A stretch of DNA of 64,000 bases from Octopus sinensis (Eukaryota). Below the pieces are notes generated by a model. The model saw only the letters and a program-made list of their open reading frames with translations, had not been told where the DNA came from and did not search any database. The position numbers and the translations under genes are program-made. Shown here piece after piece: positions 9,997 through 54,210 of this stretch (positions within the stretch are counted from its first letter, which is position 1; each line of letters opens with the position of its first letter). The stretch lies in contig NC_043001.1 in assembly GCF_006345805.1 (NCBI RefSeq), forward strand, positions 71,486,001-71,550,000. The letters are read 5' to 3'.

Positions 9997-10130
9997 TAGA
10001 GACAAAACCACTATTTTGCAAATCAAACAAGGAAAGACTTAATCAATACATAAAAAAATTTAATATAAAGTAAATAAATCGCCACTACAATTGTTTCCTG
10101 TCTTCAAATGACATTCATCAGGTGGATTTC
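9997..10130 (-). mobile_element. PLE pseudo-LTR (pLTR) end fragment
   Basis: Same family as the fold-back at 25651-25823 (AGAGACAAAACCACTATT.TGCAAATCAAACAA.GAAAGACTTAA); abuts (AT)n; contains an HHR. Confidence 0.7.
10082..10125 (-). ncRNA. Minimal type I hammerhead ribozyme motif
   Basis: ccac-CTGATGA-a-tgtc atttgaa gaca-g-GAAAC-aatt-GTA-gtgg. Stem I ccac/gtgg, stem II tgtc/gaca, palindromic stem III ACAATTGT; one mismatch at the base of stem II. Confidence 0.75.
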
Positions 10131-11253
10131 ATATCTAAAAATATCAATATTTTAAAAAATAAATTTAAAATGGCTAAAACTATAAATAATATAAATTTAT
10201 CAATGAAAAAATATAAAAATATATAATCTATATATAATCTATATATAATATAATCAAGAACTAAATAACCTCTATAAACAATTGAATATAAAGAAACCTA
10301 TTATTAAAGTTCTCATATTTAAAGATGAAGAATCTAATTTCAAAAAACAAAAAACAAAAAACAAAAATAAAAATAAACTATATATACACACATGCTCATG
10401 CACATATATCTAAGTATATATAAACATATCTAAATACATACACTAACTCACACGCCCATATATATCTCTATACATACACATAAACATCTAGGCAACGATA
10501 AATTAATAAAATAGCCAAATACTTCAACACATTACTTATTCATACTCCCTCACACACACATACAACCCTCATTCATAAACACACTCACTCTGCATGACAA
10601 CCACACAACCAGCATCCGCATATACTCAACCGCAACAATATAAACATTTCATTCTTAGCCCAAAACTACCAAATACCAAATACCACATATATACCACAAC
10701 AATACATAAATACTTAAACCAAACACACACACACACATATCCAAATACCACATGCATGCAACAAACATACACAAATACGCAAACAAACACACACACACAC
10801 ATATCCAAATACCACATGCATGCAACAAACATACACAAATACGCAAACAAACACACACACACACATATCCAAATACCACAAGCCCAGAGCTATAGAAGAA
10901 ACTTGCCCAAGGAGCCACGCTGTGGCACTGAATCCGGAACCATGTGGTTAAGAAGCAAACTTCTTAACTTAAAGCCACGCCTGTTTATTTTTCTTCCTTT
11001 CTTTCTTTCATTATATTTTTTAAATGAGACAAATTATGCATATTATAATTATGTTATTTAATTGAAGCCAATATCTGTAGCAGCTCAAAGCGTTTCATGA
11101 ACCGAATTTTTACCTTTTATCATCTTTTTGAGATTAGTAAAACTTCTAGCTAGTTACTGACGGACATTTATCGATTATATAGCTTCCCTACTTCCTGGGT
11201 ATGAGCCTATAAATCTTCCCAGCTTGCTGGATCTTTCCCCTTATATTTCCCCT

Positions 11254-11373
11254 CTATGTTGGCCCTTCTCTTATATACCTCCTCTGCAGAGCAGGAGCAC
11301 ACACGGGGACGGAAAGTGTCGCTGAAGAGAACACAGCTGTGCGGGTGTCTACTTGGCAAAAAAGATGACCGTC
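11254..11373 (-). CDS. Candidate terminal coding exon of an unknown host gene
   Basis: Acceptor gtatttcag|GAC; phase 0; DGHLFCQVDTRTAVFSSATLSVPVCAPALQRRYIREGPT*. Confidence 0.3.
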   Translation of the reverse strand, partial: DGHLFCQVDTRTAVFSSATLSVPVCAPALQRRYIREGPT

Positions 11374-11790
11374 CTGAAATACAACACACGGTTTCACATC
11401 TGGAATCTCGCAACACATATATATGTATATATATATATATATATATATATATATATATATATATATATATAATATATATATATATATATATATATATATA
11501 TATATATACGTGCTTGAATGTGTGTGTGTGTATGTGTGCCTTTTGCTTGTTACAATTAGACTGATGTCATACTGGAGCAAAACCTTGAAAGGTTTAGTTG
11601 AAAAAGCACTTTAACACTTTCTAAGTTTGATATTTATTCTCTCCGCCACTTTTTGTGTTAAGTGGTAAGTTGCGGGGACGTAAACAAACCATCACCAGTT
11701 GTCAAGCGGTGGTGGGGATGAACAAAAGCATAAACATAAATATTCTTTCTACTTTAGGTCCAAGGCCAGAAATTAGGGGGTAAGAGGTAG

Positions 11791-12016
11791 CTGCGAGCTG
11801 GCAGAATCGTTAGCACACTGGGCGAAATGCTTAGTTGTATTTCGTCTGCCATTACGTACTGAGTTCAAATTACGCCGAGGTCGACTTTGCCTTTCACCCT
11901 TTCAGGGGCGATTAAATAAGTACCATTTACGCACTGGGGTCGATATAATCGACTTAATCCGTTTGTCTGTCCTTCTTTGTCCCCTTTGTTTTAGCCCCTT
12001 TTGGGCAGTAAAGAAA
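11791..12016 (+). mobile_element. SINE family B copy nested in an older opposite-strand copy
   Basis: GCGAGCTGGCAGAATCGTTAGC...GAGTTCAAAT..CGCCGAGGTCGACTTTGCCTTTCA...GTAAAGAAA; flanked by the direct repeat TAAGAGGTAG (11781-11790 and 12017-12026). Confidence 0.85.
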
Positions 12017-50473: not shown

Positions 50474-50629
50474 CACCTATACTGAATGATTAATAACAAT
50501 AATAATAATAATAAATGAATAATTTTATATAAGGCCCTAACGTGACCAAAAACTTTTCTATTGTAAGTACATATTTCCGGTTATTTTTCTCTAAGTGGTT
50601 AATCTATAAATGTATATAAACTTGCAGAT

Positions 50630-50812
50630 GTGAAAGAGGCATTAAAAGGCATCACTTGACAGAAGTTCCAGCACTGCTTCAAATAGTGGAAAACGTGTCT
50701 GGACCGATGCATTGCTGCAAATGGAGAATACCTTGAAGGCGATAAAACTGAAAAAAAATGTAAAACTAAGTGAATAAAATAATATTGCAAACTTCTTTTG
50801 GATACCCCCTTT
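50630..50812 (+). mobile_element. Mariner transposase C-terminus and right TIR remnant
   Basis: KFQHCFK*WKTCLDRCIAANGEYLEGDK followed by CTTTTGGATACCCCCT. Confidence 0.75.
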
Positions 50813-53800
50813 TTTTGCGGGATTGAGATTTTTTATTTATTATTCTGACATTATTTTTAATATATTTTTCTTAAAGCATTTTTGCATTAGATGATACAGT
50901 GAAGATCCTGATCTATCTCCTATGGAAAATATGACTGAAATGCTATAATTAGCTTCTCAAGACACTTTATCGATATCACTAAAATTCGAATCTATAGATT
51001 AAATACATCTAAAAGAATCCAAATAACAGGATTTGTTTTTACAACTAAGTAAATTCCTCTTATTTTCCGACATTAACTGTTTCTATGGATATTTTCTTCC
51101 CTTTGCTTGCTTCTTTGTTGTTACTCCCGTGGTCATATATCCTTATGATATCCAATAATTTATATTCTTTACTTTTTGTTTGACGAACTCCCAAAAGAAA
51201 GAGATATGTTGTGGATTCACATACGTGTTGAAATATTAGTTTCAAAATTCGAAACACGGCTAACAATTTCGAAGAGGGGTAAGCTGATTGCCTTGTCTCC
51301 CAGTGCTCAACTGGTACTTAATTAATCGACCCCGAAATGATGAAAGGCAAATTCGACATCGGCAGAATTTGACCTTTGAACCTAAAGACGGACGAAAAGC
51401 CCCAAAGCCTTTTCACCCCCGCTTGCTAATGACTCTACCGGATCACCTTTACGTGTTTAAATAAGGAAATATTCTCAGTAAACACATTTACGTAAATTCT
51501 ATTTTGTTCCTTCCACAATAATCTTCCACATCTGCACATATTGCTTTTTGCATGCTTGTAGAAGATACCCTGTGAGACCCATCTGAAATTTAAACTCGGC
51601 CATTCCATATTTCAACAGAAAGCTGTCTTGTTATCCATAAGTTCTACGTTGTTTAGTGCGGTTACTCAGATGTTTCCAGCATATCAGCTACTAAATAATA
51701 TTCGGTCTTTTATGCATAAAATTTACTCTGACAACCACATCTTGTTTATAACATACACAGTTCTCTTTTGATACCATAGCTGAACTTTAAAAAATTCTTC
51801 GTACTAAACATTTTTTTCTTATTCATTTACGTTAGCGCACGCATATACCAGCAAACTTTGATTTTATTTCTGTCAATGTGTCCGCCATACGGCTTTTTAT
51901 AAAACTAATATGCTTTGTTACTGTATGTTTCTATGCACATTTTATTGAAACTTGCTTAATATTCTTCTCCACAAGCACACTTCTTTTTATTTGTAAATTT
52001 TTATGTTTAATATTGTTATTTTCAGTGATGGAATTTATTTGCAATATCCTCGAACTACTACTTCATAGATAATATCAGATTTGGCTGTTGTTTAGGAACT
52101 CTCTGGAATCAACAGGTTGCTATCCAGTTATCATACAGAAATGATATTTCATGTGCAAAGATTTAAATAATACACAAAAAAACTGATCTGAACAATTTCT
52201 TTATGTTTAGTCAGTTTGTTTTTATAAGAAATGGAAGTAGTGATCTTTCACATATATTTTTGTCAGATTCGCATAAAACGAGCCTTTACGAAGTTTGCAC
52301 ATCCATATATAACGAATTACATTTATTGTAATGCAATGTATAATATTATTTTCAACGTCTAAACACGATTTCAGTCTTATAACTGAAAGTTGCTTCCAGT
52401 TTATGTTTCAAGTATATTTGAGTGTATATATAAATAGCTGAATAGATAGAAAGATGATTGCATACATCTCTTTCTCTCTTACTCTCTCTCTCCCCCTCTC
52501 TCATTTTCTCATTGTATATGTGTGTATGTATATATATATATATTATATATATATATATATATATATATATATAGATAGATATAGATAGATAGATAGATAG
52601 ATAGATAGATAGATAGATAGATAGATAGATAGATAGATAGATAGATAGATATGTGTGTGTGTGTGTGTGTGTTTGTTTCGAGTTTTTACGTGTATATATT
52701 TATATGAGTGTATATATTTTTGAATCTATGTGTAAATCTGCTTCAGTATGAATGTGCATATGTGTGTGTATGTTTATATATATAGAGAGAGAGGGAGAGA
52801 GAGAGAAGACAGAGACAGAGAAGACAGAGAGAGAGGGATGAGAGAGTGAGAGAGAGAGAGAGAAGACAGAGTGTGATAAAGAGAGAGAGAGAGAGAGAGA
52901 GAGTGAGAGAGAGAGAGAGAGAGAGAGAGAGAGAGAGAGAGAGAGAGAGAGCATTTCTCGAAAACATATTTGTTGCAAACAGATTAGCCGAAAGAATATC
53001 GGCCAACGGCAAAATCGTCGACAGATATATACAGAAGAGCATATTCATAGGAAAACAAAAATGTCAAATACAAAATTGATCGAAAGATATTACTTAAAAG
53101 AAAAAAGACCGGAATATGCAGAATATAAATTTTAATGTTTATGAAAAGAAAAGTTACAGAAAATTTTCAAGGAGATGGTTCAAGGATTTATTGTAATTTC
53201 GATGAAGTTTATGTCCTTGAAAAAAATAGCGTCCTGAAAGATACGGCAGACGGTTTTCCAGTATTCTTTCATGAAATGTGTACAATTTAAGAATTATGCA
53301 AAGCATGATTAAAACGCTTTGGTAGCATCGTTAGATTGCATTCAAATATAAATTCTGTATTGAACACTGCACGTAAAGAACATCAACGTGTTCAATCTTG
53401 GATAGATATTCTACAAAGTGCTGCTCCTATTGTACCAAAAAATATTTGAAGTGTTATTTCCTCAAAAAGTATTCATTCTATTTGTTATGTTGGACAAATC
53501 AAATAGAGATATTTTGTATTACTATCGAGCTATTGCGTATATTATTCTTGGATATAAATTAACTTCACGTCTTTGTGAACATTTCGTTTCTCATGTACTT
53601 TCTTATGAACAAGAAATAGCCTGAAAATATATTGAAAATATATTATTTTTACAAAATGTTTCATTCACATGACTTTACATTACATTGTTTCAAATATAAA
53701 TAATTCGGCATAAAGTTTAGATGTATTTCTAGACGTGTATACAAATATGTCTTTCTATGAATGCATATCGACAAATTTCTCCTTCAATGTATTTGATATT

Positions 53801-54123
53801 GTCTAGTATCTCTTCGCGCGATGGAAGATTTTTGTTCATTTTATAAATACGTTTTTAACCAATTCCTTTTTCTACAAAAGTCTTTTGACCATTGTGTTTT
53901 CGATAAATGTATCATGTGTGTGTGGGGGGTGTAAGTATTTATTTGGACCTTGGATATATGGTTAGTAGTATGCCAATTAAAGCACATTCATTGTTTAGGC
54001 TACCTGGTGTCATCCACAGTTTTGGTAAATGTGACACTGAATCTACCTCAGGAAATTCGCTGTGTTCGTTGAATATAAAATGAATAAATCGGAAAATGGA
54101 GTATGCAAGAATCTTTATTCAAC

Positions 54124-54210
54124 ACAACGATCGTTTCAACCCACTCTGCATCTACTCCTTGCGGATGGGATACTGTACATCCACCAGTGCAGAATGTATT
54201 TCATTGGATG
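54124..54210 (-). ncRNA. Strongly decayed HHR-like motif
   Basis: Stem II attctgca/tgcagagt, then GAAAC-gatc-GTT with a palindromic stem III; 5' core mutated (CCAATGA). Confidence 0.35.

What the first reader, a model, noticed from the sequence alone, without database searches (positions are those of the whole stretch)
9997..54210. Dense set of tiny ribozyme-bearing, fold-back PLE-end insertions at microsatellites
Seen: nine HHR or HHR-like motifs (10082, 13198, 20226, 41354, 42149, 42235, 42591, 44067, 54124), three HHR 3' halves (~26125, ~30919, ~40884) and eight short inverted duplications. They belong to several unrelated sequence families, most abut (AT)n tracts, and most have no adjacent coding sequence. 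Established: PLE pLTRs carry minimal type I HHRs with palindromic stem III, and PLE insertions often show an inverted pLTR. Inference: these are either extremely 5'-truncated PLEs or a non-autonomous retrozyme-like class, seeding both dsRNA hairpins and self-cleaving motifs across this region.
Basis: partly seen in the sequence, partly recalled or inferred. Interest (0 to 1): 0.75.

Follow-up and report, generated by a model that had tools for sequence, protein, structure and literature searches.

The report
Penelope retrotransposon stubs plus two retrozymes
These hammerhead motifs are the tail ends of eleven common repeat families: most are cut-short copies of protein-coding Penelope-like jumping genes, and two are non-coding 533- and 547-base repeats (retrozymes) that likely borrow the same enzymes; both kinds are already known, and self-cutting is untested here.

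Summary
The motifs are real. Seven of nine pass a strict type I hammerhead descriptor (shuffles give 0.08); the other two are decayed copies; the three halves are truncated family hammerheads. Eight of the twelve motifs (seven families) have a fixed 3' end at microsatellites and 5' ends scattered along a ladder that runs up into reverse transcriptase or GIY-YIG coding sequence with Hydra-clade marks: truncated coding Penelope-like elements (PLEs). Two (26125, 40884) belong to non-coding 533- and 547-nt head-to-tail units, one with an array of at least nine: non-LTR retrozymes. Two are unresolved. Fold-backs are the known inverted 5'-truncated PLE copy; 35 of 42 pairs join one short and one tailed end, and the hairpin is predicted to bury the ribozyme core. 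Hammerhead density is about seven times background, mostly one 3-kb cluster; fold-back density is ordinary. A U4C core is the family norm in the 42.2-kb family (71 of 94 copies). No expression or cleavage evidence. The scan reported such retrozymes and U4C cores before, on other DNA of this genome.

The parts
9994..10863 (-). Family A: 870-nt 5'-truncated Hydra-like PLE end; hammerhead core CUGAUGA at 10121, predicted cut after 10086
   Evidence: 1103 candidates, 95-100% alike; L146: 6.1-kb tandem unit with a 672-aa RT plus GIY-YIG frame
13005..13879 (-). Family B: old PLE end; hammerhead decayed in this copy (core at 13302 reads CCGAGGA, family norm CUGA)
   Evidence: 17 of 20 TG at positions 4-5; endonuclease match in one locus, L153
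13938..14240 (.). Fold-back related to retrozyme family I (84-88%), no hammerhead left
20052..20364 (+). Family C: old fold-back with hammerhead (core 20230); class unresolved
   Evidence: (30 candidates, 71-78%)
21059..21400 (.). Fold-back related to retrozyme family I (78-80%), no hammerhead left
25651..25956 (.). Fold-back of family A ends, truncated downstream of the hammerhead
25951..26325 (.). Family I: fold-back of a 533-nt non-coding head-to-tail unit; hammerhead 3' half on the minus arm (GAAA at 26139)
   Evidence: (all 40 scored hits cross the unit junction)
30854..30995 (.). Family J: fold-back of two hammerhead 3' halves of a coding PLE family
   Evidence: 2323 candidates; endonuclease about 1.4 kb upstream of the query in 4 of 20 loci
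40757..41152 (.). Family K: fold-back of a 547-nt non-coding retrozyme unit; hammerhead 3' half (GAAA at 40884)
   Evidence: (array L257)
41296..41706 (.). Family D: young fold-back; whole hammerhead on the minus arm (core 41430), half on the plus arm with a 158-nt tail
   Evidence: 1375 candidates; L147, 399-aa frame with GIY-YIG
42113..42395 (.). Family E: fold-back with a U4C-core hammerhead on each arm (cores 42203-, 42248+)
   Evidence: (endonuclease about 0.9 kb upstream in L010, L016)
42480..43640 (.). Family F: hammerhead on the minus arm (core 42665, U4C in this copy) and an inverted plus arm with a broken Hydra-like thumb and GIY-YIG frame
44033..47455 (-). Family G: 5'-truncated coding PLE: frame 46160-47266 (GIY-YIG), 2.1-kb 3' region, hammerhead core 44140, inverted arm 47207-47455
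   Evidence: (1318 candidates, about 99%)
53933..54431 (-). Family H: old hammerhead-bearing end with tail (core CCAATGA at 54207, likely decayed CCGAUGA); class unresolved

Best explanation
The motifs are the hammerhead-bearing 3' ends of eleven independent repeat families: seven are 5'-truncated copies of protein-coding, Hydra-like Penelope elements, two are non-coding 533- and 547-nt retrozyme units likely mobilised by the same enzymes, and two are unassigned. Shown in the DNA: fixed 3' ends at microsatellites, two alternative 3' ends (short and tailed), scattered 5' ends, coding sequence upstream in long copies of seven families, head-to-tail units without a reading frame in two. Inferred mechanism: the PLE endonuclease cuts both strands of a TA-rich site; the reverse transcriptase primes from each cut end at one of two start sites just downstream of the hammerhead on a tandem or circular RNA; both copies usually stop early and are joined head to head, which gives the fold-back. 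Long microsatellite-rich 3' regions (0.8-3.3 kb) explain why most stubs hold no coding sequence. The stubs are predicted to be mostly inert: single, halved or decayed hammerheads, and in fold-backs the antisense arm is made first on either strand and would pair the core.
For: Stems covary across families while the core stays (stem I CCAC/GTGG, TCAC/GTGA, GACA/TGTY, ATAG/CTAT, GCGG/CCGC, TACG/CGTA, GCAG/CTGC, CACA/TGTG; self-complementary stem III). 5' ladders: family E about 120 to over 1400 nt, A about 165 to over 1600, G about 250 to over 1600, D 544-1703 with 9 of 30 running past the reference (candidates fall from 1375 at the end to 151 at about -500). Coding links: A (L146), D (L147), E (L150, L151), F (L158 and the window), G (window), J (4 of 20 loci), B (1 locus). 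Hydra marks: CxCX5C in A, E, G and F, DKT and a KWK stretch in A (definitions). Retrozymes: K units run head to tail, at least nine in L257, each with a full core, longest stop-free stretch 45 aa in a dimer; I crosses its own junction in all 40 scored hits; circular folds z -7.9 and -6.4 on the sense strand, weaker antisense. Head-to-head pairs are short plus tail in 35 of 42 in families A, D, E, G. Literature matches.
Against: Families C and H could not be tied to coding sequence or to a circular junction. The B link rests on one locus (tblastn E about 1e-6 to 1e-7). Loci were the best-scoring 12-30 of each family, not random draws. Within-family covariation in K was not above shuffles (1 pair with a change on both sides, 231 of 500 shuffles reach it). 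K and I share no extended sequence with nine other families' ends or two long coding copies, so the helper element is unidentified. Pfam recognised neither L146 nor L147 frame; the clade call rests on motifs and tblastn, not a tree. A tandem RNA would explain the K and I junctions as well as a circle.
Confidence: 0.85

Rival explanations
1. All short copies form one non-autonomous, ribozyme-bearing SINE-like or retrozyme class with its own fixed ends.
For: Most window copies lack coding sequence; K and I are truly non-coding; three of 15 D loci first seemed to share a 5' end near -550.
Against: The D hotspot disappeared in 30 further copies; seven families run into coding sequence; no tRNA gene in the window.
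Confidence: 0.05
2. Every copy, K and I included, is a random truncation of a coding PLE; the tandem units are partial pLTR tandems.
For: PLEs form partial tandems; K and I show the same tails, fold-backs and TA targets.
Against: An array of at least nine 547-nt units; upstream of the I unit lies the I unit's own end in 25 of 25 loci fetched for the junction, and none continues into a same-strand PLE frame (two have short unrelated tblastn hits); strong strand-biased circular fold.
Confidence: 0.05
3. The cluster is kept by the host as a source of double-stranded RNA or cleavage sites in a transcript crossing this region.
For: Strict hammerhead density is 8 in 64 kb against 7 in 400 kb and 3 in 200 kb (binomial p 3e-4 and 1e-3).
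Against: The window was picked for this density and the descriptor was tuned on it; 5 of the 8 lie in one 3-kb stretch of adjacent insertions, two from a single event; fold-back density is ordinary; window copies are as decayed as other copies.
Confidence: 0.05

Closest known systems
Hydra clade of C-terminal endonuclease PLEs (Craig et al. 2021, PMC8557442; passages and section 11 read, supplement searched by keyword)
   Same: RT then GIY-YIG, CxCX5C linker, DKT, canonical hammerheads, (TA)n targets, 5' truncation, inverted 5'-truncated copy, optional tail at one end.
   Different: Units here reach 6.1 kb with 0.8-3.3-kb 3' regions (published: generally under 3 kb); tails are 63-158 nt in A, D, E, G (published 30-40); some families carry a U4C core.
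Minimal type I hammerheads of metazoan PLEs (Cervera and de la Pena 2014, PMC4209133; parts 1-2 of 4 read)
   Same: Short stem I, long stem II, small palindromic stem III; many unrelated families per genome; mostly single motifs from truncated PLEs; opposite-strand pairs 100-700 bp apart.
   Different: The core variant described in the parts read is U3-A8, not U4C; its supplementary alignments are figures I could not see.
Metazoan non-LTR retrozymes (Cervera and de la Pena 2020, PMC7229834, parts 2-3 of 6; Li, Clavereau and Pollet 2026, 10.64898/2026.07.22.740005, parts 1-3 of 5)
   Same: Non-coding head-to-tail units with one type I hammerhead each, low GC, self-paired circular fold, monomers to arrays, proposed PLE origin.
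   Different: K and I (533-547 nt) are longer than the 170-400-nt invertebrate examples but within the 51-972 bp of Li et al.; they are mostly dispersed two-armed insertions with PLE-type ends; circles and cleavage are not shown.
PAc (Poseidon of Anolis) mechanism (Frangieh et al. 2024, PMC11167929; parts 1-2 of 4 read)
   Same: Cuts both strands at AT-rich DNA; two RT start sites explain the tail; the hammerhead needs the protein and is dispensable for insertion in vitro.
   Different: Different clade; the one-short-one-tail pairing of the two arms is seen here in DNA only.

Membership tests
Type I minimal hammerhead of PLEs | CUGANGA and GAAA boxes, NUH site, stems I and II, short self-complementary stem III | tested here: met
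   7 of 9 pass the descriptor, 3 of them with U4C; stems vary in pairs across families
Type I minimal hammerhead of PLEs | Self-cleavage, usually as a dimer or with protein help | not testable with these tools
   No assay; no raw RNA reads were available
EN+ Penelope-like element (families A, B, D, E, F, G, J) | RT and GIY-YIG frame upstream of the hammerhead-bearing end | tested here: met
   RT itself seen in A and F, endonuclease in A, B (one locus), D, E, F, G, J
EN+ Penelope-like element (families A, B, D, E, F, G, J) | Fixed 3' end, optional tail, variable 5' truncation, inverted truncated copy, tandem pLTR | tested here: met
   full tandem seen in L146
Hydra clade | CxCX5C linker, DKT, RWK-like motif, (TA)n targets | tested here: met
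   CxCX5C in A, E, G, F; DKT and RIKWK in A; D lacks the linker motif
Hydra clade | RT phylogeny places it with Hydra elements | not tested
   No tree built
Non-LTR retrozyme (families K, I) | Non-coding head-to-tail unit with a type I hammerhead in each unit | tested here: met
   K: nine cores in array L257; I: junction in 40 of 40 scored hits, arms up to about two units, no locus with two whole cores checked
Non-LTR retrozyme (families K, I) | Self-paired circular fold | tested here: met
   z -7.9 and -6.4 against 25 shuffles each, one unit per family
Non-LTR retrozyme (families K, I) | Unit-length linear and circular RNAs in cells | not testable with these tools
   Only contigs of runs not on record as RNA
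PLE or retrozyme (families C, H) | Coding sequence upstream, or a head-to-tail junction | tested here: inconclusive
   Neither found in 15 (C) and 40 (H) loci

The most novel reading that the evidence does not exclude
Families K and I are genomic records of about 540-nt RNA circles that a Hydra-type PLE reverse transcriptase copies from both ends of one DNA cut, sometimes for many laps, while several coding families have fixed a U4C hammerhead core and still spread because the PLE protein rescues or bypasses cleavage. The genome would then hold a natural panel for testing what the PLE hammerhead does and how head-to-head insertions form.
Probability: 0.3. Interest if true: 0.55.

Novelty: new member of a known kind. 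Interest (0 to 1): 0.32.

Why it matters
As found, it shows coding PLE stubs and retrozymes side by side with the same insertion marks, which fits the published idea that animal retrozymes use PLE enzymes; I found no paper on cephalopod retrozymes (two papers hold both words, the one listed is Craig et al.). Two points are testable: the one-short-one-tail rule of the arms (35 of 42) predicts two-ended priming from one RNA, and families that spread with a U4C core, a change reported to lower activity strongly in vitro (PMC3088659, passage), speak to whether PLE hammerheads need to cut at all. The local cluster itself is most likely neutral debris.

Tried and rejected
Rfam scan: only microsatellite-driven miRNA matches below the gathering score among the 150 shown of 215. 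Fixed 5' end in family D: rejected. Same-strand pairs in family C (L261, L262) are local duplications with flanks, not units. Two K pairs about 0.8-1 kb apart (L255, L256) are not clean 547-nt tandems. U4C at 13198 is a change in this copy, not the family norm. Arm-end counts for I and K were dropped because unit junctions were scored as tail ends. PLE frames near two H loci are on the opposite strand and were not counted. Helper element for K and I: no extended match. Expression: no RNA holder listed; contigs laid on a K dimer cover parts of it and say nothing on strand, ends or circles; the window's own transcription stays untested. Pfam did not recognise the Hydra-like frames. Lunse et al. 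2017 on PLE hammerhead variants is not held (seen only as a citation) and may already cover U4C; 'hammerhead' plus 'U4C' gave one paper; Craig's supplement showed no U4C hammerhead among the 7 places displayed of 10 keyword hits; bioRxiv supplements were closed.
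Full report
Setting. The window is G000:C5:71486001-71550000 in a 2.72-Gb animal genome, 35% GC and rich in microsatellites. Earlier notes of the scan call it an octopus genome; I did not test that.

Observation. A descriptor for type I hammerheads (core, stem I, stem II, GAAA, short stem III, NUH) accepts 7 of the 9 full motifs: 4 with CUGANGA (shuffle mean 0.06) and 3 with CCGANGA (0.02), none of 200 shuffles reaching either count. 13198 and 54124 are decayed copies of families that carry hammerhead motifs. 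The halves at 26125, 30919 and 40884 are completed in other copies: CTGACGA, CTGAAGA and CTGACGA cores with matching stem I. Across the eleven families the core is constant while stems I, II and III change in pairs; within family K alone covariation did not exceed shuffles. Nine short fold-backs are present; only those at 20.2, 41.4 and 42.2 kb hold an intact hammerhead. Ten of 14 insertions end within 30 nt of a (TA)5+ tract and all 14 near some microsatellite, against 12% and 20% for random positions.

Every motif is a repeat. First-look candidates in the genome: A (10082) 1103, B (13198) 280, C (20226) 30, D (41354) 1375, E (42149/42235) 797, F (42591) 361, G (44067) 1318, H (54124) 346, I (26125) 1361, J (30919) 2323, K (40884) 1201. 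These are rough figures; only 30-40 candidates were scored per search and 12-20 loci fetched. The best copies of A, D and G are 94-100% alike, so these families are young.

Seven families are truncation ladders of coding PLEs. All share a fixed 3' end, a second fixed end 63-158 nt further on in A, D, E and G (the tail), and scattered 5' ends. Long copies run into coding sequence: A in L146, a 6.1-kb tandem unit with a 672-aa frame holding the RT motif YRDD and a GIY-YIG domain; D in L147 (399 aa); E in L150 and L151; F in L158; B in one locus, L153; J in 4 of 20 upstream loci; G in the window (frame 46160-47266). The F copy in the window has its own inverted coding arm at about 42790-43640. 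CxCX5C linkers (A, E, F, G), DKT and RIKWK (A) match the Hydra clade as defined by Craig et al.; no tree was built and Pfam did not recognise the frames. The 3' non-coding regions are 0.8-3.3 kb long, so most truncated copies hold no coding sequence. Three of 15 D loci first seemed to share a 5' end; in 30 copies chosen by a probe just inside it, the ends spread from -544 to -1703 and 9 ran past the reference.

Two families are retrozymes. In K the tail leads straight back into the start of the unit: the period is 547 nt, L257 holds an array of at least nine units (82-89% to the reference) with nine full cores, and the longest stop-free stretch in a dimer is 45 aa. In I the period is 533 nt; a probe across the junction matched over it in all 40 scored hits of 804 candidates, and 25 of 25 fetched loci show unit end followed by unit start. 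The fold-backs at 14.0 and 21.2 kb are relatives of I. Folded as circles, both units are far more stable than shuffles, more so on the hammerhead strand (z -7.9 against -5.3; -6.4 against -3.7; 25 shuffles each). K and I are distantly related to each other but show no extended match to the coding families tested. I tested K for this after reading earlier notes of the scan on similar elements and seeing same-strand neighbours. C and H are old and remain unassigned.

Fold-backs. Inverted 5'-truncated copies and a tail at one end are standard PLE anatomy (Craig et al.), as are single and opposite-strand hammerheads from truncated PLEs (Cervera and de la Pena). In A, D, E and G, 35 of 42 head-to-head pairs join one short and one tailed end, none joins two short ends, one joins two tails and six have another end. 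With the in vitro result that a PLE protein cuts both strands and starts copying at two sites bounding the tail, the likely mechanism is two-ended priming on one RNA, early stops, and joining of the two copies; this is inferred. The arms point away from each other, so a read-through RNA of either strand holds one sense hammerhead preceded by its antisense partner. In the E fold-back 9 of 10 core positions have an unpaired probability near 0 on each strand, and in D the GAAA box is fully paired. The fold-backs would give double-stranded RNA, not cleavage, if transcribed at all.

Density. The same descriptor, slightly relaxed, finds 8 motifs in the window, 7 in 40 dispersed 10-kb stretches and 3 in 200 kb of flanks: about sevenfold more, p 3e-4 and 1e-3. 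The window was chosen for this and 5 of the 8 lie between 41.3 and 44.2 kb. Fold-backs by an automatic rule: 3, against 3.7 and 3.2 per 64 kb. One narrow pattern alone gives 4143 canonical and 308 U4C motifs genome-wide, controls 22 and 13.

U4C core. In family E, 71 of 94 exact-flank matches have C at position 4; positions 4-5 read CG 53, TG 19, CA 15, other 7 (hand count), the symmetric pattern expected from CpG decay of a CG master. H shows the same pattern (CA 8, CG 4, TG 3, other 4 of 19), F is mixed (5 of 20), B is canonical. A coding family outside the window has C4 in 84 of the first 100 of 506 matches. U4C is known from a viroid, where it lowers activity in vitro but permits infection (passage); I could not see Lunse et al. 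2017, which may cover it. The scan noted U4C PLE families and retrozymes of 534-565 nt before, on other DNA.

Verdict. Real and correctly seen, but explained by two known kinds of element. No evidence on transcription or cleavage could be obtained. New member of a known kind; interest 0.32.

Noticed in passing
window 29030-29082 (-): A further hammerhead-like motif (core CTGATGA at 29076, stem III CTTAAAG, GUA) beside a (GT)n tract passes the relaxed descriptor; a genome search found only one weak other match (74%, E 8e-6), so it is a very old copy or chance.
   Followed up: partly
window 14627-17702: A broken PLE with RT then GIY-YIG, a CX5CxxC linker (Neptune-like, label from Craig et al. 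passages), an inverted arm and a TA target, but no type I hammerhead by the descriptor; its end has a GAAAA followed by the hairpin GCCCA/TGGGC. Earlier notes describe scrambled hammerheads in this genome; not tested here.
   Followed up: no
window 1483-2346 (-): Another broken Hydra-like PLE coding fragment next to a (TA)n tract; it matches the coding frames of family D and of the outside U4C family.
   Followed up: partly
L242/L243, L267-L269 (G000:C2:17466500-17471000 and others): A coding PLE family not in the window has 506 exact matches to a core pattern, with U4C in 84 of the first 100.
   Followed up: partly
L257 (G000:C2:2545500-2552500): Array of at least nine 547-nt K units with an inverted arm at one end; units differ from each other in stem II, so the array is not a simple recent copy of one unit.
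   Followed up: partly
window 36018-36843: 75-nt terminal inverted repeats at 99% around 676 nt, like a small DNA transposon.
   Followed up: no
window 56544-60442: Fragments of an APE-type endonuclease (+) and an RT (-) of LINE elements, below Pfam cut-offs.
   Followed up: no
window 11790-12145, 23863-24207, 51298-51439, 55206-55555: Four copies of a dispersed SINE-like repeat with internal direct and inverted duplications.
   Followed up: no
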